NCBI GenBank assembly: GCA_050575255.1
Contig: JBNZDD010013727.1
Span: forward strand, 9,262,527 to 9,326,526
Length of the DNA: 64,000 nt
Direction: 5' to 3'
Origin: Harriotta raleighana
Taxonomy: Eukaryota
The notes beneath the pieces are model-generated. The model was not told where the DNA came from. It ran no database searches and was given only the letters and a program-made list of their open reading frames with translations. The position numbers were made by a program, and so were the translations under genes. This document shows, piece by piece, positions 6,713 through 62,140 of this stretch (the stretch's first letter is position 1; every line of letters begins with the position of its first letter).

Positions 6713-6716
6713 GAAC

Positions 6717-6790
6717 TGTTCTGACAAAAGGTCATCGACTTGAAATGTTAACTCACTTTCCTCTCTCCATAGATGCTGCCTGACTTCTGT
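6717..6790 (+). mobile_element. Penelope-like element terminal repeat fragment with degenerate hammerhead motif
   Basis: GTT-CTGACAA-A-AGGTC-ATC-GACTT-GAAA-TG-TT-AACT followed by cactttcctctctccatagatgctgcctgac, as in the 16.8-kb Penelope end. Confidence 0.75.
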
Positions 6791-12688: not shown

Positions 12689-13500
12689 AATGGTGGCCGA
12701 AAATAACTTCCTGTCTACACCTGACTGCTCCTTACTCATTCATCTGTTTCATTCCAAGGGTATAATAAATAGATTTACATAGGATGACAATAAATATATA
12801 CTATTTCGCAACTGCTAATTTGCATAAAACTTCATCTGTGCACCTAAATAAACATCACAAGCCTGTTAGGAGCAGTGTCTATGGAATACAGATTTGAATT
12901 TGCTACTAAGTAGAATAGAATGACTGCACGTAATTTGACTGATTATGGTTGTTGACCTCAAATGGCTTTAATCACATACAATCCTTTCAAATGTTTCTGA
13001 CATCAATCTCATACTCACTTACACAAAATAATCAACTCCCAGCATTTTCCATTCTTTTAATAGGTCCACTCTTCTGAAATGGAAAATGGGTATAGAAAGC
13101 CCTCCACTCTACATACAAGCACCAGCCACAACCTTGAGATATCACCACTAAGCTCTCCACCTTCTGAACTCAATAACTTACCATGCAAATTGCTGAAAAT
13201 ATTTTTAAATGTAATTTTAACTAATTTTAAGATGAAAGACTGCTTGTATATAAAGTGCACACTTTGGAAAGAAAGCTAGATTAATTGTTCTGGTGTATTT
13301 CCATTGTTTAAGCTTGAAAATATCTGATTTTCAAAGTTCACATTTCTCTCATTGTAAATTTGTATGTTCTTATGTCCTGTTCTTATCACACAGATAAAAT
13401 TGATCATTAGCTTAATGGCTGTTTATAGGACATTGGTCAAAAGATTTAGTGTACAGTGTAGTAACTGTTTTATTTTTGCAGATGAACTATAGGTCTTCTA

Positions 13501-13597
13501 CAAAAACAGAAGTTAATGGGAACACTTAGCAGGTCAGGCAGTATCTATGGAGAAAGGAAAGTGAGTCAACGTTTCAGGTCCAGGACCTTTCGCATAG
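13501..13597 (-). mobile_element. Penelope-like terminal repeat fragment with hammerhead motif
   Basis: Minus strand: TGCGA-A-AGGTC-CTG-GACCT-GAAA-CG-TT-GACT-cactttcctttctccatagatactgcctgacctgct. Confidence 0.78.
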
Positions 13598-16740: not shown

Positions 16741-17201
16741 CAGAAAGAGAAATCACTGGGAACATTCAAGCAAGTCAGGCAGCATTTATGGAGAAAGGAA
16801 AGTGAGTCAATGTTTCGGGTCATGACACTTAGTCAGAACTGGGACTTGTTGGGAGGGAGAGGCTTTTAAGCACTAACAGAAAGGGAAAGACAGGACAAGA
16901 AAGACAAAGAAAATAGGGGTAGAGGACAGAAGATGATTAGTTAAAGAGTTGTTAATGTTCTGAAACAAAAGGGGGGATTGCAACAAAACTGGAGAGAAGA
17001 GGAGATAATAATGTTAAACAAAGAGGGGGTGAAACTGCAAAAGAACAGGCAGATCAGATGGTCACAGGAGAGGTGGAGGGGGAAGGTGAGCTGTTATGAC
17101 TTGAAATTATTGAAATCAATATTGAGGACAGAGGGCTATAAGGTCCCTAGCAGATAGATACGATGCTGTTCCTCGAACAGTTCCGCGGTGCCGTTGTTCC
17201 A
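16741..17201 (-). mobile_element. Penelope-like element 3' fragment: GIY-YIG endonuclease C-terminus, pyrimidine-rich UTR and hammerhead-bearing terminal repeat
   Basis: 17180->17094 translates LFEEQHRIYLLGTL*PSVLNIDFNNFKS*, resembling the typical PLE ending EQxxIxxLxTLxPxGLN; 16840->16805 reads AGTT-CTGACTA-A-GTGTC-AT-GACCC-GAAA-CA-TT-GACT. Confidence 0.82.
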
Positions 17202-17202
17202 G

Positions 17203-17363
17203 GTGACTATTTGTGGAACACTACTGTGCGAAATTGGCTGCAACAGTTCACCCACAAAATACACAGTGAATTCACTTTCCAGTATTTCCTGCAAAGCTCT
17301 TTGAGAAATCTGGATGAGGTGATAAGACGCTGTTTCAAATACAAGCATTATTATTATTATTAT
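17203..17363 (+). mobile_element. SINE 3' half
   Basis: gactatttgtggaacactactgtgcgaaattggctgc...cgctgtttcaaatacaagcattattatt. Confidence 0.75.
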
Positions 17364-17419: not shown

Positions 17420-18450
17420 AAAACACCAACAACAACATAATTTCATTTGTATAGCGTCTTTCATTTTAGGAGGACGTCTCAAGGTGCTGGACAGTTATTG
17501 ATTCAGATCCGAGCTGAGGAGGTGGGGGGTGGGGGGAGGGGAAATAATTGCCAATGGGTTCATCAAAGAGGAGAGTCTTGAGGCGAGACTTGAAGGAGGC
17601 TAGGGAGAGTCCAGAGGGACTTCGGGATGGAGTTATTAATAATAATAATCCTTGCATTTGATATAGCGCTTTTCACACCTTATCGATGTCTCAAAGCGCT
17701 TCACAGAATATTCTGTAAAGTGAATTGACTGTATATTTGTGGGCGAAATGCGGCAGCCAATTGCGCACAGCAGTGTCCCACAAACAGTCATGGATTGAAA
17801 TGACCAATTTTATTACGTATTGTGTTTTTTTTTGGAGGGATTATTATTAGGCATGTGGAGTAAGGAAACTTCCCAAGGTTTCACCCTGATCTGCCTGGAT
17901 TCGAACACAGGTCTCACGCTTGTAAGGTGAGTGCTCTAACCACTGAGCTACAGGAGCTCCTCCAGAGGTTGGGGGCAGAGAGACTGAAGGCTCTGCCGCC
18001 AATGGTTGGGCAGGTGGGTCGAGGACATGGAGCAGGACGGAGGGGCCGGGTGGGTTGATAGGAGGTCACGGATGTATGGTGGAGCGAAGTTGTGGAGGGC
18101 TTTAAATGTAAGGACCAGGATCTTGAATTGGATCCTCTGGATGACGGAGAGCCAATGGAGTCGGGCAAAGATGGGCAAGATGGGATCACAGAGTTTGGGA
18201 GGGTAGAGGACATGGTCCGCAGAGTTTTGGATTATCTGCAGCCTGTGTAGGGAGAAATTGGGAAGGCCGACCAACAAGGCAATTGCATAATCGAGCCGGG
18301 ATGTAATGAAGGCGTGGATGAGGGTTTCAGTGGCTTTAGGGGTGAGGTAATGGCGGAGTTGGGAAATGTTGCGGGAGTAGGGAAAGGCAGAGCGAGTCAT
18401 TACCCTGGATGTGAGGGTGGAAAGACAGTTGAAGATTGAACAAGTTGAGG
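17420..18450 (-). mobile_element. L2 LINE 3' ~700 bp interrupted by a SINE
   Basis: ORF 17948-18400 reads ATETLIHAFITSRLDY..LQIIQNSA..LHWL..IQFKILVLTFKALH, a classic L2 ORF2 C-terminus; tail at 17420-17495. Confidence 0.93.
17634..17960 (-). mobile_element. Full-length young tRNA-derived SINE (short variant)
   Basis: A box tagctcagtggttagagc, B box gttcgaatcc, body and (ATT)n tail. Confidence 0.92.
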
Positions 18451-19102
18451 GTCGAAAAACATGTTCCTATTACACTATGAAACCTCTTCTGTGCAGTGAA
18501 CACTTCCTACCCTCTTTCCTCCTCACTATTGCAGTGCACCACACATCATCAATGTTTCCCTCTGATATCCCTTCATCTGAAGGACATTGTTATCCAGAGT
18601 TGAACTGTTATGCAGGATCTTGGACTTTTGGGCATAGAGAATGTCACGCATGAGTTCTTCCCTTATCTTTCACTGTCCTCATCTTGCTCCTTCATCTCTT
18701 CCTCTTCTTGCTCAACCTTTAATGATGAAATCAATCTTTAATATCTGTGGAGAGAGAGGCTGCAAGAAATAATAAATAATTGTAATCCTTGCATTTGATG
18801 CAGGACTTTTCAACAACAACAACAACTTGCGTTTATATAGCATTTTGGTAGCATCTATCCCATATAAAAGGAAAGCGTTTGACAATGGTGGAGTCAGGGA
18901 GAGAGGAAAGGTAACGATTGACACATTTGAAGAGGAAGATCTTCAGGTGGAATTGAAAAGGCTAAAGAGGGACAAGGCAAACCGATTGTGGTGGAGAGTT
19001 CCAGAAATTGTGGAAAGGATGTGCAGAGGACAGAGTCAGCTGATCAAATGGGACAAGTGGGGTGTTCACAAGTAGAAGAAGTAGGGAGGTGTTGGGGCAT
19101 GT

Positions 19103-24664: not shown

Positions 24665-26310
24665 AACACTGTACAAATTACATTTGTAAAGACATCCCAA
24701 GGTGCTGTCAGGGATTAGGACCAGAGCAGGAGGGAGGTGGAGGGGAATTGAGATCAAGAAGTGTGGAGCACAGAGGATTAGAGGGTGGCCGAAGGTATGG
24801 TTGAGGTGTGCCTTGAAGGAGGCAAGGGAAGGGGAGAGACAAAGTGAATGTGGGATGGAGTTTGAGAGGGTGGGGCAGAGAGGTTGAAGTCCCAACCACT
24901 GGTGGTGGAGCAGACCGGGCATGGGACATGAAGCTGGCTGGATTTGCTAAGTAAGGATGAGAATCTTGAACTCGATCCTCTGAGGGATGGAGAGCCAGTG
25001 GAACTGGATGATAGTGGGTGTGATGCGGTCAAGGAGTCTGGGGCAGGAGAGGACACAAGCTGCAAAGTTCTGGATGATCTGGAGCTTGTGGAGGTAAGGG
25101 TTGGGGAAAAAAATTGCATTTGTATAGCACCTCTCATATCAGGAGGACGTCCCAAGGTGCTGAACAGTTAGTGTTTCGGACCCGAACTGGGGACGGAATT
25201 GGGAAGGATGGATGGAAGGGTGAAGAAAGGGGCTGACCAATGGCATGGTCAAAGAGGAGGGTCTTGAAGGCCAACAAGCAACAACAACAACTTTATATAG
25301 CGCCCGGCACGCAGGGGCCATTTCAAAGTGCTTCACAGTGGTGGAGCCCAAGGTCGAGCCGGGGGAGGGGGAAGATGACTGTAAGTATGGTTGAAGAGAA
25401 AGATGTTCAGGTGTGACCTTGGATGATGAAGTATTGGAAACGGTGGCAAGATGAAGGGGTTGAGGGAGGGAGTTTCAAAATTTTGGGCATAGTGGCTGAA
25501 AGCTCGGTCACTGATGATGGAGTGGAGGATTCAAGGCACAAGGAGGAGGCCTTACCCAGTAGAGCGGAGAGCGCGTGTACTGCTGTGAGGATTGAGTAGA
25601 TAAGAGAGGGAGGTGGGTGCGGAGAATTAGAGGGATTTAAAAACAAGAGTGAGGATCTTGAAGTCAATTCACTCTGTGACACAGAACCAGTGCAGTTTGG
25701 CAAGGGCTGTGATAATTGGGATACGAAGTTTGGTGCGGGTGAGAATGCGCATGCAGAGTTTTGTATGAGCTGACTTTTGTGGATGCTGGAGGAGGGGAGA
25801 CCAACATGGAAGGCGTTAGAGTAAGCAGGGCATTGGCATAGCCAAGCCTGGATGTAATGAAGACATGTACAACAACAACAACAACAAAATTACATTTGTA
25901 TAGCATCTTTCATGTCGGGAGGATGTCTCAAGGCGCTGGACAGTTAATGTTTTGGACCTGAGCTAGATATGGGATTGGTGAGAGTAGAGGGAAGAGGGGA
26001 GGAGGGCTGATGAATGGCATGGTCAAAGAAGAAGGTCTTGAGGTGAGACTTAAAGCAGGCTATGGAGGGGGCGAGGTGGATGAATTGTAGAATGGAATTC
26101 CAAAGGTTGGGAGCACAGTGGCTGAAGGCTCACCTAGTTGGGCGGGAGGGTCAGGGGATGTGGAGCAGGCCAGAGCCCACTGAGTGGAGGGAACGTATAG
26201 GTTGGTAGGGGTTAGTCAGAGGTAGGGGGAGGCAAGGCCATGGAGGGCTTTAAAGGTGAGGACCAGGATCTTGAATTGAATCCTACATGTAATAGGAAGT
26301 CAGAGGAGTC
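24665..26310 (-). mobile_element. Cluster of at least four nested 5'-truncated L2 3' ends
   Basis: Separate tails start at about 24670, 25110, 25273 and 25869; peptides include FITSRLGYANALL and FKAHL. Confidence 0.85.
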
Positions 26311-28066
26311 GGGTGAGGATGGGAGTGGGGGGCGCGGGGGTGGGGGAGGGGGAATGGGGGGGAATAGGTGTACCAGGGGGACTTGTGGGAGTGGAAAGTG
26401 GTTAGGGGAGTTGATGGGGATAAAGGTGTTGAGAATAATAAACAAATTTGTGGGAGGGCTGTGGACTGTGGCAGTCCACCATTTATATAACTTTCCCAGC
26501 AAAAAAAATGCTAGGAACGATTGAAAGATGTTGAAACAGCTGCAACAACACTTATATAGCGCTCTTCACAAGGGGTAGAGTCTCACAGCAGTTAACGGTG
26601 GTGGAATCTTATGTCGATCCAGGGAGAAGGAGAAGCTGATTGTAAGCACGGTTGAAGAGGAAGATCTTCTGGCATGATCTAAAAAAACAGAAGTAGGGGG
26701 CAAGATGGAAGAATTGAGGGAGAGAGTTTCAAAGTTTCGGGGCATTGTGACTGAAAGCTATTGGCCTGTATCTCATGTTTCAGTGACTTTGCAATTCAAT
26801 ACTGGCTGGTAACTGGCNGAGCGGAGAGCGCGTGTACTGCTGTGAGGATTGAGTAGATAAGAGAGGGAGGTGGGTGCGGAGAATTAGAGGGATTTAAAAA
26901 CAAGAGTGAGGATCTTGAAGTCAATTCACTCTGTGACACAGAACCAGTGCAGTTTGGCAAGGGCTGTGATAATTGGGATACGAAGTTTGGTGCGGGTGAG
27001 AATGCGCATGCAGAGTTTTGTATGAGCTGACTTTTGTGGATGCTGGAGGAGGGGAGACCAACATGGAAGGCGTTAGAGTAAGCAGGGCATTGGCATAGCC
27101 AAGCCTGGATGTAATGAAGACATGTACAACAACAACAACAACAAAATTACATTTGTATAGCATCTTTCATGTCGGGAGGATGTCTCAAGGCGCTGGACAG
27201 TTAATGTTTTGGACCTGAGCTAGATATGGGATTGGTGAGAGTAGAGGGAAGAGGGGAGGAGGGCTGATGAATGGCATGGTCAAAGAAGAAGGTCTTGAGG
27301 TGAGACTTAAAGCAGGCTATGGAGGGGGCGAGGTGGATGAATTGTAGAATGGAATTCCAAATGTTGGGAACACAGTGGCTGAAGGCTCACCTAGTTGGGC
27401 GGGAGGGTCAGGGGATGTGGAGCAGGCCAGAGCCCACTGAGTGGAGGGAACGTATAGGTTGGTAGGGGTTAGTCAGAGGTAGGGGGAGGCAAGGCCATGG
27501 AGGGCTTTAAAGGTGAGGACCAGGATCTTGAATTGAATCCTACATGTAATAGGAAGTCAGAGGAGTCGGGTGAGGATGGGAGTGGGGGGGGTGGGGGAGG
27601 GGGAATGGGGGGGAATAGGTGTACCAGGGGGACTTGTGGGAGTGGAAAGCGGTTAGGGGAGTTGATGGGGATAAAGGTGTTGAGAATAATAAACAAATTT
27701 GTTGGAGGGCTGTGGACTGTGGCAGTCCACCATTTATATAACTTTCCCAGCAAAAAAAATGCTAGGAACGATTGAAAGATGTTGAAACAGCTGCAACAAC
27801 ACTTATATAGCGCTCTTCACAAGGGGTAGAGTCTCACAGCAGTTAACGGTGGTGGAATCTTATGTCGATCCAGGGAGAAGGAGAAGCTGATTGTAAGCAC
27901 GGTTGAAGAGGAAGATCTTCTGGCATGATCTAAAAAAACAGAAGTAGGGGGCAAGATGGAAGAATTGAGGGAGAGAGTTTCAAAGTTTCGGGGCATTGTG
28001 ACTGAAAGCTATTGGCTGTATCTCATGTTTCAGTGACTTTGCAATTCAATACTGGCTGATAACTGG
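25562..28066. repeat. About 1.25-kb direct duplication joined at n26818
   Basis: 25562-26816 is nearly identical to 26819-28066 with a few SNPs and indels; the ORFs are duplicated in the track. Confidence 0.95.
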
Positions 28067-43304: not shown

Positions 43305-43510
43305 CTCTTTAACCCATCATCTCATGTCCTCTACCCAATTTTCTCATTTGTCTTCCTTGCCCTGCCTCTCCCCTCTCAGTTAGTCCTTAAAATCTCCCAA
43401 ATACCCCAATACCCCAGTTCAGGGACCCAACAATGTTGACTCTTTTTCCTTTTTCCATAAAATGTTGCCTGACCTGCTGAGTGTTCCCAGTGATTTCAAT
43501 TTTTGTTTTT
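43305..43510 (+). mobile_element. Penelope-like 3' UTR/terminal repeat with the hammerhead core deleted
   Basis: cccagttc-agggaccc..atgttgactc..ttccataaaatgttgcctgacctgctgagtgttcccagtgatttc matches the reverse complement of 16745-16930. Confidence 0.7.
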
Positions 43511-55710: not shown

Positions 55711-58460
55711 ATGATGTTGCAATTTGCTTTTCTAGAAGGGATGATTTATAAAGATTTGGATGAATTAAAAAATATATAATTTTTACTTAGTTACAATTGG
55801 CTTGGTAATTGTGTCTCAGAACTATAGTATCTCTTTTCAAAATGTACAGCGTTCAATTTAAAATTAATCAAAAACATAGTAGTGAATAAAACAGTTTCCC
55901 CAGTGTCTTAAACTACTAAGAACAGCAACATGTAAAACTGCCGCATGTCAGCATTACTTCCAAGTACTATATCAGGAATCATGTCAATGAATTGTACGGG
56001 ATGCCCGGGTATCAACAAAGGAACAATCAACATCAAACATAGATGGTAAGAAACAATCTCACTGCACCAAACAGAGCCATCCAACTATTGCCACATGTAG
56101 AGGACACTGATTATAAGGGACATCATCCCTATTACATATTACTCTTCAGAATTAGTCTTCTCACACATTGATACATGCTTTACATCCCTCCAGCACTGTC
56201 CAATAGACTTTCAGATTTTAGAGGAGCCTGTATAAACCCACTGTGGGAAGGCGCTGTTTCCAAAGGTCAGCAAAGATCTCCGCTATTTCTATGAGTTGTC
56301 CTTAGGTTGGGACCCACATCAGGAGCTGGGGCGGTGTGGAAAATGGCATTTTCTCGGCTTTCCACTCTGTCAGCTGGCTATGTGACCCCAATCTGCTTTG
56401 CGTAATTGAATGTCGCGTTTCGGCCACAAAATACCATACTCAGTTATTCCACTTTACTGAATATCCTGTGAGGTGCTTTGCGAAGTGATAAGGCGCTATA
56501 TCAAATGCAAAGATTATCGTTAATTGTTTATTGCTCATGCTCCTTGCTGCTGGAAAGCTTCTGAATCTGCAGTCACACCACCTACTCTCTGATCACACCT
56601 TCTGTGGAACTGGACCACATGAACACGACAAGATTTTGTTAAGATAGAAAAGTATCAAATTGAATCAGTTAAGAAACATTGGAATTTTTAACAGCCACCT
56701 TAATAGATTCAACGTTATCCAAATTAATCTGTTTCAAAACAACAAATGTTAGAAGAAACATGAAAGCTTATTTTTTTTAAAATTTGGTTTCAATGTGCGA
56801 TATTTACTACAGCTAACAAACTAAATGGCATCTGTATTTATTAATCCTTGCTTAGATTCGTAGTATCAGAAGCATTACTCTTTCATTATACCTTGCCCTA
56901 TAGCTTATCATGTGCGATCTTACTTAAAGAGGCTGCATTTGATCACTTGTGCCCTTCAGGCCCTGAGAAAGGAAATAGCAGCTGCATTGTGTTAATGGTT
57001 GTGGGCAGACAGACTGGTGTGCTACACTTCCTGTCTATCACTGAACCCATCCTCCTCTCCCAGACAAATACCACATCTGAAAGTCAGCAAAGTGGCTTCC
57101 AGCTCAGACTGTCTCAGTTCACAGTGACTGTGACTTTAAAGCTGAACCTCAATTAATCATTAGTGTGAGTTTGAGGTAGGATAAAAGACTAAAATGATCA
57201 GATGAGGTCATGGCACACACCTACATGATCGAGTGGGCTGAATGGCCTTATCACTTTCCAACATTCAATGTTCTTATCACTGCTTTAATCTGTTGCTAAT
57301 TAATTCACACGCAAAAGGCTGGCTGCTAACTATCTGTGCAGAGAAAGTAACAAGTGTAAGCGAATGATGCGTTTTCTACATGTGTGAGTGATCATATTTA
57401 ACACGATTGAATTGCAGTATCAGAGGGAACAGGATACACATTGCAATTATTATAATTTACATTTTTCAGCTTCACGGTATTTTAACCCTGGAGGTTCTAG
57501 AATCTTGTTTTTGAAACTCTGCCACCTCAAAAACAAATCTCTCATCTTAATGTCAGTGTGTGATTGTGATGTATGGGTTACACTGATTCCCAGCCTAAGA
57601 TACAAGCAAAGGTGTCTTTAACTTCAGATTGTTTATCTAACCAAAACAGCACTTTCCCATGTGTAAATTAGCTGCTGTGTTCACTCACAAAATGTACACA
57701 GTCACATCACTTTTTCAGTTTCACAGTGATTTTAGATGTCCCGTGAGGTTCTTTGAGACATCTTTCAGACATCTGGATGATGTGCTAAGACACTGTATCA
57801 AATCCAAATATTATTCATAATTTGTGGAGCTCTGATAAACTGAAGATTTTAATTTTTTATTTTTTAAACTAGCATTAATGCAGTGTCTATTTTCAACAAT
57901 TACTAACTGAACCAACCCATATGTTGCTAATGGGATGAAAATCACAACGTATGATATTTTATTACTGTTGATAATTTTCAAAATGCTGATAAATGTGACC
58001 AAGACTGCTGACAACTAATGACTAACCACAAGTATGACCCTATGGTGGTTCTGAGATATCAACCAGCAGTATCAACTCAATTCTTCTTTGTATGTCATCA
58101 AATCACATCTGAAGACTAAATCTATGGAGATCATACAATAGAAATTTATGTTTTTTCTCGGATTTATCTCCAAAAATTCTATGGTAGATTTATAGTAGCC
58201 AGTAACTTTACCTTTTCTAGATATGTTCCCCACACAACCCACTTCCTGCACCAGAGAGAAGAGAGAATTCAACTGGTCGCAATACTCCTGTTTAATATCA
58301 GCAAGGGAAAAGTGATCCACAAGGTTTTGTGGTCAAAGGAACAGACAAGAAGTCCTGTTGAATTCTTTGCTGTATATCATATACCTGACCAATACTTCTT
58401 CTCAGAGCTGTTTTCTATTAATTAATTGTTAATTATGTGAGCCATCTAAAAATTTTAACT

Positions 58461-58716
58461 AAAATAGAAGTTGCTGGGAAAACTCAGGCATCATCTATGG
58501 AGAAAGGAAAGTGAATCAACGTTTCGGGTCCACGACCCTTCGTGGGGGTCAAAGACACAGTCACTGTCAGATCCAGGGGGTTTTGTGGTCAAAGGTAGTG
58601 GACCCGAAACATTGACTCACTTTCCTTTTCCATAGATGCTGCCTAGCCTGCTGGGTTTTCCCAGCAGCTTCTGTTTTTGTTTTAGATTTCCAGCATCTGC
58701 AGTATTTTGTGTTTTG
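58461..58716. mobile_element. Inverted pair of Penelope terminal repeats (fold-back mini-element), each arm with a partial hammerhead
   Basis: 58461-58542 is approximately the reverse complement of 58591-58678; the right arm continues to agatttccagcatctgcagtattttg. Confidence 0.82.
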
Positions 58717-59553
58717 TCAAAGTTGTAACTAACTGAGGCAAAATCTAAGACAGAATAGTTTAGGTATTCAATTTAAAGTATACCACAACAACAACAACAT
58801 TTTATTTCTAGAGTGCCTTCCACATCGGAAGGCCATCCATACTAAAAAATGCTACAGACTTTAGTTTTTTTCGATAAGATTATATTCCAACAAGAATTGC
58901 TTTCTATTAAGGAGCACAATCTCCATTAAAGGTGTTTGTTGAACTTCTTTTTCTAAAGTTACCACAAGATTAAGGCAATCATGCTAAAAGACATTCTACC
59001 ACTTACACCTGATTTCTTTATAACAAAGCAAGTTTCTTTGTCACAAAAAGGTACCTCAAACATTGTTTCATAAAAACTATTCCTTCAAGAGAAAAATATG
59101 TCGTTTACAGGTTTATAGCAAATCTCTAAATAGAACAAAATACGATGGAAGCCAGGTGAGAGCCATTGCAAACAGGGTAACACAGTAAAACCAATATTGA
59201 TGGGAGAAGCCCTAAATCCAATAAGATTTACTGGTCAATTCCAGACAGGTGGCTTTGTGACTCATAAAATATAATTCTGCAGGAAAGATAATTAACATGA
59301 GAGATCTGAATAAACTGAAAAGAATTGTCATTTTATTTGAATAAAAACAGTTACACACATCTTTACTTCAAAAGAGCTTGTTAAATTTTGAATGCTGCTG
59401 TTATACTACTACAATTTTTCATAAATTATGTTTAAACAGCACTTAACCTGAACTATTAAAAATACCGGAACTTCATACAGCTGAATATCAAAGCCCTTGA
59501 CTAATGCTTAAGAAGTTTAGAAAATAATAACATTAATCTTTGCATTTGATATA

Positions 59554-59642: not shown

Positions 59643-60040
59643 GCCCCATTCCATACGCCACATGTGCTGTAACACAGCACTGAAGTTAAAAAATTCTCAT
59701 GCTCCAACCACAGCCCCGGATGACAGACTGGCCAAGATGGGAACTACAAGCAGCTATTCCGAACTTTGGGAGATTTGCCGACATCTGTATGTATTTTGAA
59801 ATCTTGTCCGTTTTAGGTAACAGTTATCTTCAGGTAACAGTTGAAGATCTTCCTCTTCAACTATGCCTCCAGTCATGTTCCCCCTCCCCCTGACTCAGCA
59901 TCAGCTTTCCCACTGTTAAGCACTCTGAAAAGCCATCCGGCATGAAGGGCGCTATGTAAATGCAACATGTTGTTAATTAATTGAAGAGAGTACTATCCCT
60001 TGAAAGCAATCCACCATTCTTTTAACAACCAGGATCCTAN

Positions 60041-62140
60041 GGTGGCATGGCCCTCATCTCTAGGGAGCCACTTGCCCTATCCTCCTACTCTGATTCCTTC
60101 CCCTCCTTTGAATACCTCAACCTCTCCTACACCTCCCATCTCTCTCTCAAAATCCTCCTTGTTTACTGTCCCCCAAAACCCTCCCCAACCTTCACCTCTG
60201 ACCTCTCCACTCTCCTTTCCTACCTATGCGCCTCCTCTGATCGCCTCATCATCCTCGGTGACTTCAACCTCCACTTCACCCTCTCCTGCTCCACCTCCTC
60301 AGAATTCTCCTCTCTCCTCTCGTCTCTCAACCTCTCCCTCCATATCCACTCCGCCACCCACATTCACGGCCACCCCCTCGACCTAGTGATCACCCGAGGC
60401 CTCAATGTCTCGGATATCACCATCTCCGACAAGGCCATCTCCGACTACCACTTCATTTATTTCAACTCCTCTTCCCTCCACCCCCAAACCTACCACCATC
60501 TTCTACCACCCATGGAAGAAGATCCCCCCACAAACTCTCTCCGCTGCCTTGGAGTCCTCTGAACTTCTCTCTCTCTGGCCCACCTCCTGCACTGACCTAT
60601 CGTCTGCACTCACTCTACTCCACAACACACTCTCCACCACATTTGACACTCTTGCCCCCCTCACTTCCTGAACTGCCTCCTACTCCTGAACCTCACCCTG
60701 GTTCACCAAGCCACCTCCATTCCCTCAAGGGCCAGGTGCAGGCCACTGAATGCACCTGGCTTAAATCCGGCCTAACGGTCCACCGGCATATCTGGCTGGA
60801 CCTCACATCATTTTACCGCTCCGCCCTATCCTCCACTAAATCGTCCTTCTACGCCAAGATAATCCTGGAGGTGAAGGACAACCCCCGGCTTCTCTTCTCA
60901 CCACCAATCAGTTCCTCTGTCCACCCTGCCTTGCCTCGCGGATCCTTTCCTCGAACTCCTGCTGCGAGGAAATGCTGGATTTCCAAAATCGAAGGAATCT
61001 GCTCTGCTGTCACTGTCCCTCCAACTTCCACTCCCTCCCCACCTCCCGCCCACACCCTGTCTCCTACACATCCTCCTTCCACACCTTCAATCCTATCTCC
61101 CCATCCTCCGTCAAAAAAACCATCTCTGCGATGAAGCCTGCTCCCTTGACCCCATCCCCACCCCGTTCCTCACCATCCAGCTCCACTAATCTCTGACACC
61201 TGTCCCTCTCATCTGGCACTGTTCCCAATTCCTTCAAAACAGCCACTATCACTCCCATCCTAAAAAAAAACCTTCCCTCGATTCGTCGCAGCTACAAGCT
61301 ACTAGCCCATCTCCAACCTCCCCTTCCTCTCCAAGGTCCTGGAAAGAGTAGTTGCCTCCCAGCTCCACTCTTTCCTCTCAAGATACTCACTCCTTGAACA
61401 CCTCCAATCAGGTTTCCGCACTTCTCACAGCACGGAAATTGCTCTGGTCAAGGTCACCAATAACATCTTAACTATCTGTGACCAGGGCTGCCTCAGCCTC
61501 CTCATCCTCCTCGACCTATCCGCTGCCTTCGTCACCGTCGCCCACACAATCCTCCTCCACCGCCTCTCCTCCCTCCTCAACCTTCAAGGCTCTGTCCTTG
61601 ACTGGTTCCAGTCATATCTCCCAACACTTTGTATCTTCCAACGGCTTTTCCTCCAGCCCCCGCACAGTCACATGTGGCGTTCCCCAAGTCTCTGTCCTTG
61701 GCCCTCTGAGCTTCACCCTCGATATGCTCCCCCCGGGCAACATCATCCGCAGAGATGGGGTAAATTTCCACATGTATGCGGATGACATCCAACTCTACCT
61801 TTCCTCCTCCTCTCTCGACTCCAGGACTACTGGCACGTCCACCGCCCTAACCGCCCAACCATCGGTGGCCGGGATTTTAGCTTCTCTGCCCCCACACTAT
61901 GGAACTCCATCCCACAGTCCCTCTGCCTTGCTTCCTCCCTTTCCTCCTTCAAGGCCAGTCTTAAGACTTTCCTCTTCGACTCCCCCCCCCCCTAACTCTT
62001 CCCCTTCTCCCACTCTCCTTCACCCTCCCCCTACCCCCGACCCTATCCCCCTGCTCAGGTCCCGATCTGATTGTTCAGCGCTTTGGGACGTCCTCCTGAT
62101 GTGAAAGGTGCTATACAAGTGTAATTTTATTGTTGTTGAT
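60041..62140 (+). mobile_element. L2 LINE ORF2 pseudogene (APE endonuclease + RT) plus 3' end
   Basis: Endonuclease motifs LIILGDFNLH, THIHGHPLDLVITRGL and ISDYH; RT motifs [46 protein letters not shown] and YADDIQLY; tail gggacgtcctcctgatgtgaaaggtgctata..(TTG)n; multiple frameshifts. Confidence 0.96.

What the first reader, a model, noticed from the sequence alone, without database searches (positions are those of the whole stretch)
16741..17201. Penelope-like retroelement family carrying a minimal hammerhead ribozyme in its terminal repeat
Seen: the minus strand encodes a PLE-type GIY-YIG C-terminus (EEQHRIYLLGTL*PSVLNIDFNNF), then a UTR and a terminal repeat. That repeat recurs at 6717(+), 13597(-), 43415(+), 58542(-) and 58591(+). 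Their by-eye consensus is AGTT-CTGACGA-A-RGGTC-NNN-GACCY-GAAA-CG-TT-RACT. This reads as stem I / CUGANGA / stem II / GAAA / palindromic AACGUU stem III / GUU cleavage triplet. Established: PLE pseudo-LTRs carry minimal type-I hammerheads with a palindromic stem III that are proposed to cleave as dimers. Inference: this is a chondrichthyan ribozyme-bearing PLE lineage, possibly uncatalogued in this taxon. No copy here keeps a perfect CUGANGA (CTGACAA, CTGACTA, ..TGCGA, CCACGA), consistent with decay, often at the CpG.
Basis: partly seen in the sequence, partly recalled or inferred. Interest (0 to 1): 0.8.

Follow-up and report, generated by a model that had tools for sequence, protein, structure and literature searches.

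The report
Decayed Neptune retroelement end with hammerhead
This is the broken tail end of a very abundant Penelope-like jumping gene that carries a small hammerhead (self-cutting RNA) motif of an already described kind; the ends of its many copies suggest that the RNA was likely copied uncut, from a predicted start site at the motif's first base.

Summary
Real, and of a known kind. Window 16741-17174 (minus strand) is a 5'-truncated copy of a Neptune-clade Penelope-like element: last 26 codons of the GIY-YIG domain, 3' UTR and one pseudo-LTR with a minimal type-I hammerhead. The genome holds 736 exact copies of the intact core pattern (control 0). Invertebrate relatives carry the motif at the same place with covarying helices, and a model built only from them ranks three window copies first. 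The window copy itself has a broken core. Minimal hammerheads in fish Neptune elements were described in 2014, and this scan noted the same kind in other shark-type genomes. The one addition: among 142 copies chosen on a downstream motif, 40 begin within 8 bases of the start of helix I, about 30 bases after a TATA-like box. There is no excess at the predicted cut site. This fits transcription starting at the ribozyme and reverse transcription of uncut RNA, as shown in vitro for a lizard element. Cleavage and start site are untested.

The parts
17094..17174 (-). Last 26 codons and stop of the PLE ORF (end of the GIY-YIG domain); one internal stop; 5' truncation point of this copy at about 17174-17192
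   Evidence: DNA 83-85% identical to copies L002 and L031, which run on into GIY-YIG (and RT in L031). The peptide alone maps to positions 797-817 of the 819-position profile of relatives, weakly (2.7 bits; best of 1470 scored shuffles 2.5).
16870..17093 (-). Pyrimidine-rich 3' UTR / upstream part of the pseudo-LTR
   Evidence: Shared by the 30 best genomic copies at 81-87% identity.
16864..16869 (-). TATA-like box TTAAAA, 33 bases before C3 (predicted promoter)
   Evidence: 42-43 of 44 copies keep each base. A TATA-like word lies 34-39 bases before C3 in 15 of 21 invertebrate relatives, 11 of them one family; no control. Function inferred.
16837..16840 (-). Helix I 5' strand (AGUU); predicted transcription start; commonest 5' end of short copies
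16829..16836 (-). Core box CUGANGA plus the extra A; G8 is changed to U in this copy
16817..16828 (-). Helix II and loop; one mismatch and a 1-base deletion in this copy (family: 5 pairs, 3-base loop)
16805..16816 (-). GAAA box, palindrome ACGU (here ACAU by CpG decay), U17, predicted cut between 16809 and 16808, helix I 3' strand
   Evidence: Cut site placed by hammerhead numbering, not measured.
16741..16804 (-). Downstream part of the pseudo-LTR up to the first of two common 3' ends; this copy lacks the ~35-base tail
6718..6786 (+). Short copy that begins at helix I (-3)
   Evidence: E 0.0056.
13477..13592 (-). Short copy truncated inside the core (+4)
43305..43508 (+). Pseudo-LTR copy with an internal deletion through the core
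58453..58722 (.). Head-to-head inverted pair: 58543-58453(-) without tail and 58591-58722(+) with tail, the typical PLE insertion form
   Evidence: E 0.003.

Best explanation
The stretch is a 5'-truncated, mutated copy of a Neptune-clade Penelope-like retrotransposon whose pseudo-LTR carries a minimal type-I hammerhead motif; in the parent element this motif likely sat at the very start of the transcript and was likely copied back into DNA uncut. Shown: element anatomy (pseudo-LTR, hammerhead, tail, ATG 168 bases after C3, RT, zinc knuckle, GIY-YIG), covarying helices in relatives, two preferred 3' ends, a sharp pile-up of 5' ends at helix I, and no excess at the cut site. Inferred: a TATA-like box starts transcription at helix I; the element's protein nicks DNA and starts reverse transcription at one of two internal sites about 100 and 132 bases after C3; copying back to the RNA's 5' end gives the abundant 100-140-base copies, often folded back as inverted pairs. 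Longer copies, such as this one, would come from read-through RNA primed in a downstream pseudo-LTR. The ribozyme would cut only as a dimer through ACGU or with protein help, and slowly: the monomer is predicted to fold into a rod that traps the core. The window copy is predicted to be inactive.
For: Family and clade. Motif under constraint: present within 700 bases behind the ORF in 18 of 34 relatives against 2 of 34 on the opposite strand; 85.8% of cells paired, 6 of 8 pairs changed on both sides, 0 of 500 shuffles as high; the model from relatives alone ranks three window copies first and hits 23 of 29 homologous loci; non-CpG core 3% deviant against 10% in flanks. Ends: 40 of 142 5' ends at -8..0 in both subfamilies (25 of 88, 15 of 54), 12.5% per base against 1.7% over +1..+45; cut site 6 of 370 against 78 of 4454; 0 of 65 such hits have an upstream same-strand piece. 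Precedent: PMC4209133 (fish Neptune min-HHRs, weak dimer cleavage); PMC11167929 (internal RT starts define the tail; uncut RNA is the dominant template in vitro; cleavage needs the protein).
Against: No cleavage or start site was measured. The -8..0 interval was chosen, and ends from local alignment are uncertain by a few bases. 62 of 142 ends lie inside the motif (+1..+26; 2.7% per base), which RT fall-off at a hairpin could also explain. 5 of 21 relatives show no TATA-like word and one has it at -27; Drosophila Penelope has a TATA-less promoter (PMC2377424). I found no full-length copy whose upstream pseudo-LTR starts cleanly at helix I. The predicted active dimer (-14.5 kcal/mol) is far less stable than the predicted rod dimer (-28.3), and position 17 is U, recalled as a slower triplet. 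Cut RNA may simply not be packaged or copied, so lack of a peak does not show lack of cutting.
Confidence: 0.72

Rival explanations
1. Self-cleavage is an obligatory step: two hammerheads of a tandem transcript cut as a dimer, release unit-length RNA that is circularised, and the circle is the template (Cervera and De la Pena model).
For: The motif is conserved with compensatory changes from invertebrates to this genome, and the palindrome is kept; tandem junctions exist (L292). A ligated circle would also give copies that span the cut site.
Against: A circle has no end at helix I, so it does not explain 40 of 142 ends there or why only 17 of 142 run further upstream. Hammerhead mutants did not affect insertion in vitro for the Anolis element (PMC11167929, passages).
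Confidence: 0.12
2. The pile-up at helix I is not a transcription start: reverse transcription or 5' joining stops there because of the rod-like hairpin, or a separate short non-autonomous master (retrozyme- or SINE-like) with that boundary was amplified.
For: The monomer is predicted to form a rod from -4 to +32; ends are also raised inside it. One duplicated locus shows an L2 insertion exactly at this point (L262, L263).
Against: A polymerase moving 3' to 5' on the RNA meets the hairpin at +32, not at -4. Both subfamilies show the peak, so it recurs. TATA-like spacing of about 30 bases fits a start. I saw no long tandem arrays of short units among the fetched loci. 0 of 65 peak hits are split long copies.
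Confidence: 0.13
3. The motif is a chance look-alike in a repeat, with no ribozyme ancestry.
For: Rfam finds nothing; the window copy is broken; only 5 of 44 copies keep both core and palindrome.
Against: Same position, invariant core and covarying helices in distant relatives; 97 of 177 changes are CpG transitions, as expected after insertion.
Confidence: 0.03

Closest known systems
Minimal hammerheads (min-HHR) in pseudo-LTRs of metazoan PLEs, including fish Xena, Poseidon and Neptune (Cervera and De la Pena 2014, PMC4209133; parts 1-2 of 4 read, 2 of 3 supplement files searched)
   Same: Type-I topology, short helix I, extra base between A9 and 10.1, G10.1-C11.1 pair, palindromic 15.2-16.2 with no loop 3, thousands of dispersed single copies.
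   Different: No shark term found in the two supplement files searched; figures not seen. Here position 17 is U in 41 of 44 copies, and N7=C allows a core-trapping rod.
Neptune clade of EN+ Penelope-like elements, nearest named member Neptune1_Ap (Craig et al. 2021, PMC8557442; passages and one supplement file searched)
   Same: RT then CX4CXXC linker knuckle then GIY-YIG with CCHH; RT motif IVSACSCPTELISSY; inverted 5' copies; 30-40-base tail.
   Different: A decayed vertebrate family of likely tens of thousands of copies, about 88% of the sampled ones starting at or inside the hammerhead region; none of the 16 long loci examined has an intact ORF.
Poseidon element of Anolis carolinensis, PAc (Frangieh et al. 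2024, PMC11167929; parts 1-2 of 4 read)
   Same: Two 3' ends that bracket a tail; copies span the uncut hammerhead; no RNA ends at the cut site in their RNA-seq data, no DNA ends there in mine.
   Different: In PAc the ORF starts inside helix II and the RT start sites lie in the ORF; here the ATG is 168 bases after C3, past the tail. Different clade.
Non-LTR retrozymes of animals (bioRxiv 10.64898/2026.07.22.740005; passages only, supplements closed)
   Same: PLE-derived, non-coding, hammerhead-bearing short repeats; reported in one chondrichthyan.
   Different: Retrozymes are head-to-tail tandem units; the short copies here are single or head-to-head pseudo-LTR ends with ragged 5' boundaries.

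Membership tests
EN+ Penelope-like element | Single ORF with PLE-type RT and C-terminal GIY-YIG | tested here: met
   Family copies L259-L261 give RVT_1 (E 9e-5) and GIY-YIG (E 0.004), both under Pfam's cut-offs because the copies are broken; 114 relatives at E<=1e-20 with RT, some with GIY-YIG; tblastn covers most of 806-924-aa relatives. The window copy holds only the last 26 codons.
EN+ Penelope-like element | Pseudo-LTRs, partial tandems, inverted 5' copy, optional 30-40-base tail | tested here: met
   L292 shows ORF end, pseudo-LTR, tail, next ORF start; 49 of 142 copies have an inverted partner; 3' ends at two sites about 35 bases apart.
Neptune clade | CX2-5CXXC linker knuckle and CCHH in the endonuclease | tested here: met
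   Knuckle and CXXC-YIG-H read in L009, L017, L259; second H in L023, L006. Nematis and Naiad also have such motifs (PMC8557442).
Neptune clade | RT groups with Neptune references in a tree | tested here: inconclusive
   No named reference sequences were available as data. A motif search of the Craig 2021 supplement found the family's RT motif once, in Neptune1_Ap, and not in the Nematis or Penelope rows shown.
Minimal type-I hammerhead | CUGANGA and GAAA boxes, U16.1-H17, helices I and II, palindromic helix III stub | tested here: met
   Family level. Not met by the window copy itself (G8 to U, 16.2 G to A, helix II damaged).
Minimal type-I hammerhead | Self-cleavage after H17, as dimer or with protein | not testable with these tools
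   Bench assay needed. Folding predicts a core-trapping rod for monomer and dimer.
Rfam hammerhead families | Match to a curated model | tested here: not met
   No hammerhead family among 11 matches at E<=10 in the window. Intact copies elsewhere were not run against Rfam.
Non-LTR retrozyme | Head-to-tail tandem units with fixed monomer ends at the ribozyme | tested here: not met
   Sampled copies are single or inverted pairs with variable 5' ends. No genome-wide tandem-repeat scan was run, so rare arrays are not excluded.

The most novel reading that the evidence does not exclude
In Neptune elements from invertebrates to cartilaginous fish a TATA box starts transcription on the first bases of the hammerhead's helix I, so the ribozyme is the capped 5' end of the mRNA. 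The tens of thousands of short genomic copies are a fossil record that the copied RNA was uncut. The ribozyme would then be an off-switch that removes a capped leader of about 33 bases when two RNAs pair or the element's protein binds, rather than a step of transposition.
Probability: 0.25. Interest if true: 0.55.

Novelty: new member of a known kind. Interest (0 to 1): 0.27.

Why it matters
As a catalogue entry it matters little: minimal hammerheads in PLE pseudo-LTRs are known from fishes, coelacanth, frogs and reptiles. The useful point is methodological. What PLE hammerheads do in vivo is stated as unclear in PMC8557442, and copy ends in a genome with this many insertions give a cheap in vivo readout. 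Here that readout agrees with the in vitro result on the Anolis element and gives an exact, testable start site.

Tried and rejected
Rfam scan of the window: no hammerhead. tblastn of four full-length relatives against the window: nothing significant, as the coding remnant is too short. L068, two cores 6.7 kb apart, is a duplication across an assembly gap, not a full element. The 639-aa open frame (L269) gave no frame of 200 aa or more once frames with over 20 unknown residues were dropped. A loose pattern for other hammerhead families gave 166 matches against 15 control; nearly all of the 100 listed are this family. Expression: no RNA holder listed. My first structure string was one column off; model R1 built on it was not used; searches are the corrected ones. 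No target-site duplication was evident by eye for the window copies. Lunse et al. 2017 is not held; I saw it only as cited in PMC6765202. Literature on this taxon: 'Neptune + Penelope + chondrichthyan' gave 0 papers, 'hammerhead ribozyme + cartilaginous fish' gave 1 unrelated paper, 'Penelope + shark + retrotransposon' gave 15 listings, none read. These do not show absence from Repbase, Dfam or subscription journals.

Full report
Observation. A pyrimidine-rich stretch and the repeat follow. The stretch has at least 4832 candidate matches in its 1.10-Gb genome; 40 were scored, and the long non-self ones are 81-87% identical. A pattern for the intact core has 736 exact matches and the reversed control none. 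Two downstream 28-letter patterns that mark two subfamilies have 1501 and 1639 exact matches. A profile finds 18 pieces in 464 kb around the window, 15 with pseudo-LTR sequence. If that region is typical the genome holds some tens of thousands of copies; this is an extrapolation from one region.

The element. Longer copies extend upstream into a GIY-YIG domain, a CX4CXXC zinc knuckle and an RT. An RT piece has 152 matches in the genome (150 of 681 candidates scored). Three copies of about 2.6 kb are 85% identical to each other; none of the 16 long loci examined has an unbroken ORF. Pfam gives RVT_1 and GIY-YIG below its cut-offs. The protein search gives 114 relatives; the closest named are bamboo shark proteins at 57-59% identity, followed by invertebrate proteins near 50%. 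The family's RT motif occurs once in the supplement of Craig et al. 2021, in Neptune1_Ap, and that paper gives the knuckle and CCHH as Neptune features (passages). L292 shows a whole junction: ORF end, pseudo-LTR, hammerhead, tail, then an ATG 168 bases after C3 whose first residues match the N-terminal region of relative P0024. [quoted passage not shown] The strong link is DNA identity of 83-85% to copies that run on into the ORF.

The hammerhead. In 44 copies (29 of them picked by likeness to the window copy, the rest by RT match or incidental) the commonest base in each column gives helix I AGUU/GACU, CUGACGA, an extra A, a 5-pair helix II, GAAA, ACGU and U17. Non-CpG core positions deviate in 12 of 395 cells, flanks in 445 of 4414; the gap remains for A/T columns (3.1% against 8.1%) and is smaller for G/C (8.4% against 11.7%). 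CpG transitions make up 97 of 177 changes; 20 of 44 copies keep the core and 5 of 44 also keep ACGT. For an outside test I fetched 80 relatives from metagenomes. Of 44 that reach the ORF end, 10 were dropped for under 250 bases of downstream DNA; 18 of the other 34 carry the core boxes within 700 bases, against 2 of 34 on the opposite strand. Fifteen motifs that I picked (six from one close family) show 85.8% of cells paired and 6 of 8 pairs changed on both sides; no shuffle of 500 and no slid register comes near on paired cells or covariation score (one search was a mis-registered first try). A covariance model from these non-shark motifs ranks window 58512-58552, 6715-6755 and 16803-16842 first (E 0.003, 0.006, 0.1; next 2.2) and hits a family copy in 23 of 29 loci. 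Rfam finds no hammerhead in the window. The copy in question has G8 changed to U, a damaged helix II and a broken palindrome, so it is predicted to be inactive.

Copy ends. I chose copies on a motif downstream of the cut site, so that the choice is blind to the ribozyme (first-listed matches; duplicates and copies with short or gapped flanks dropped). In a first pass 35 of 118 5' ends fell at -7..0 from C3. With more copies and stricter scoring, 40 of 142 fall at -8..0 (mode -3), 62 at +1..+26, 8 at +27..+31, 15 at +32..+46, and 17 run further upstream. Per base at risk that is 12.5% at -8..0 against 1.7% over +1..+45. The predicted cut site shows no excess (6 of 370 against 78 of 4454). None of 65 profile hits that start there (some loci overlap) has an upstream same-strand piece within the 0.4-1.5 kb of flank held. 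In L207 both arms of an inverted pair start at -3 and abut. 3' ends cluster at two places, 56 and 53 of 142, about 35 bases apart; 49 of 142 copies have an inverted partner. A TTAAAA box lies 33 bases before C3, kept in 42-43 of 44 copies; 15 of 21 relatives have a TATA-like word at -34 to -39, without a control.

Mechanism. The simplest reading joins these facts with published work. Transcription likely starts at helix I. The protein likely primes reverse transcription at two internal sites, as shown in vitro for the Anolis element, where these sites define the tail, uncut RNA is the main template, and the hammerhead cuts only with protein. Copying to the RNA's 5' end gives the short copies; read-through RNA primed in a downstream pseudo-LTR gives long and truncated ones like this. 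Folding predicts that the intact monomer prefers a rod pairing the core with the palindrome (-10.8 against -8.2 kcal/mol), and the dimer likewise (-28.3 against -14.5); 4 of 10 relatives fold the same way. These models ignore tertiary contacts. Start site, priming and cleavage are all inferred here.

Known systems and novelty. Cervera and De la Pena 2014 report min-HHRs in Xena, Poseidon and Neptune elements of fishes, thousands per genome in coelacanth and frog, with weak dimer cleavage. A TATA plus initiator in a pseudo-LTR, inverted pseudo-LTRs and the tail are described for rotifer Penelope elements (passages). A 2026 preprint finds retrozymes in one chondrichthyan and Neptune or Poseidon in five vertebrate classes (supplements closed, which may name this family). 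My searches found no paper on this family in cartilaginous fish and none placing a TATA-driven start at helix I of a Neptune hammerhead, but Repbase, Dfam and most subscription journals were not searchable. Earlier notes of this scan report the same kind in other genomes; none matched a query on the start-site point. Verdict: a real, correctly read feature and a new member of a known kind, with one modest, testable addition about where the RNA starts and that it was copied uncut.

Noticed in passing
L292:955-984 (+); same junction in L283, L285: Just before the ORF's ATG lies a branch-point-like word, a pyrimidine run and TAG, which looks like a splice acceptor. A second acceptor-like pyrimidine run with CAG marks the start of the tail. 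PLE introns are known; no donor or spliced copy was identified.
   Followed up: partly
L262:1812-2232 and L263:1688-2507 (-): An L2-type LINE end is inserted exactly at the start of helix I in an old duplicated locus; its TTG tail abuts GTT of the motif. In L263 a tRNA-derived SINE sits inside it.
   Followed up: partly
window 17634-17953 (-), 17204-17362 (+), 19105, 22893, 46308, 50677, 55343 and others: A very abundant SINE with a tRNA-like head (Rfam tRNA hits). One copy splits an L2-like fragment (17420-18466) beside the finding, and a partial copy abuts the PLE's 5' junction.
   Followed up: no
window 59985-62104 (+): Broken LINE of L2/CR1 appearance (endonuclease- and RT-like pieces in several frames); family name by eye, not tested.
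   Followed up: no
window 25630-26323 and 26887-27580: Two stretches 1257 bases apart give identical BLAST hits: a recent tandem duplication or an assembly repeat.
   Followed up: no
L356:1728-1769, L377:4912-4955, L381:5450-5487: Invertebrate relatives with hammerhead variants whose 15.2-16.2 letters differ from CG (UA in L377, still palindromic; non-palindromic in L356 and L381).
   Followed up: no
L304, L308, L335, L318 and this family: Where N7 is C or U the monomer is predicted to pair the core with the palindrome, in shark and invertebrate families alike; this could be a conserved off state.
   Followed up: partly
P0079: A snail protein annotated as an XIAP ubiquitin ligase matches the PLE RT over 89% of the query: likely a misannotated Neptune element.
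   Followed up: no
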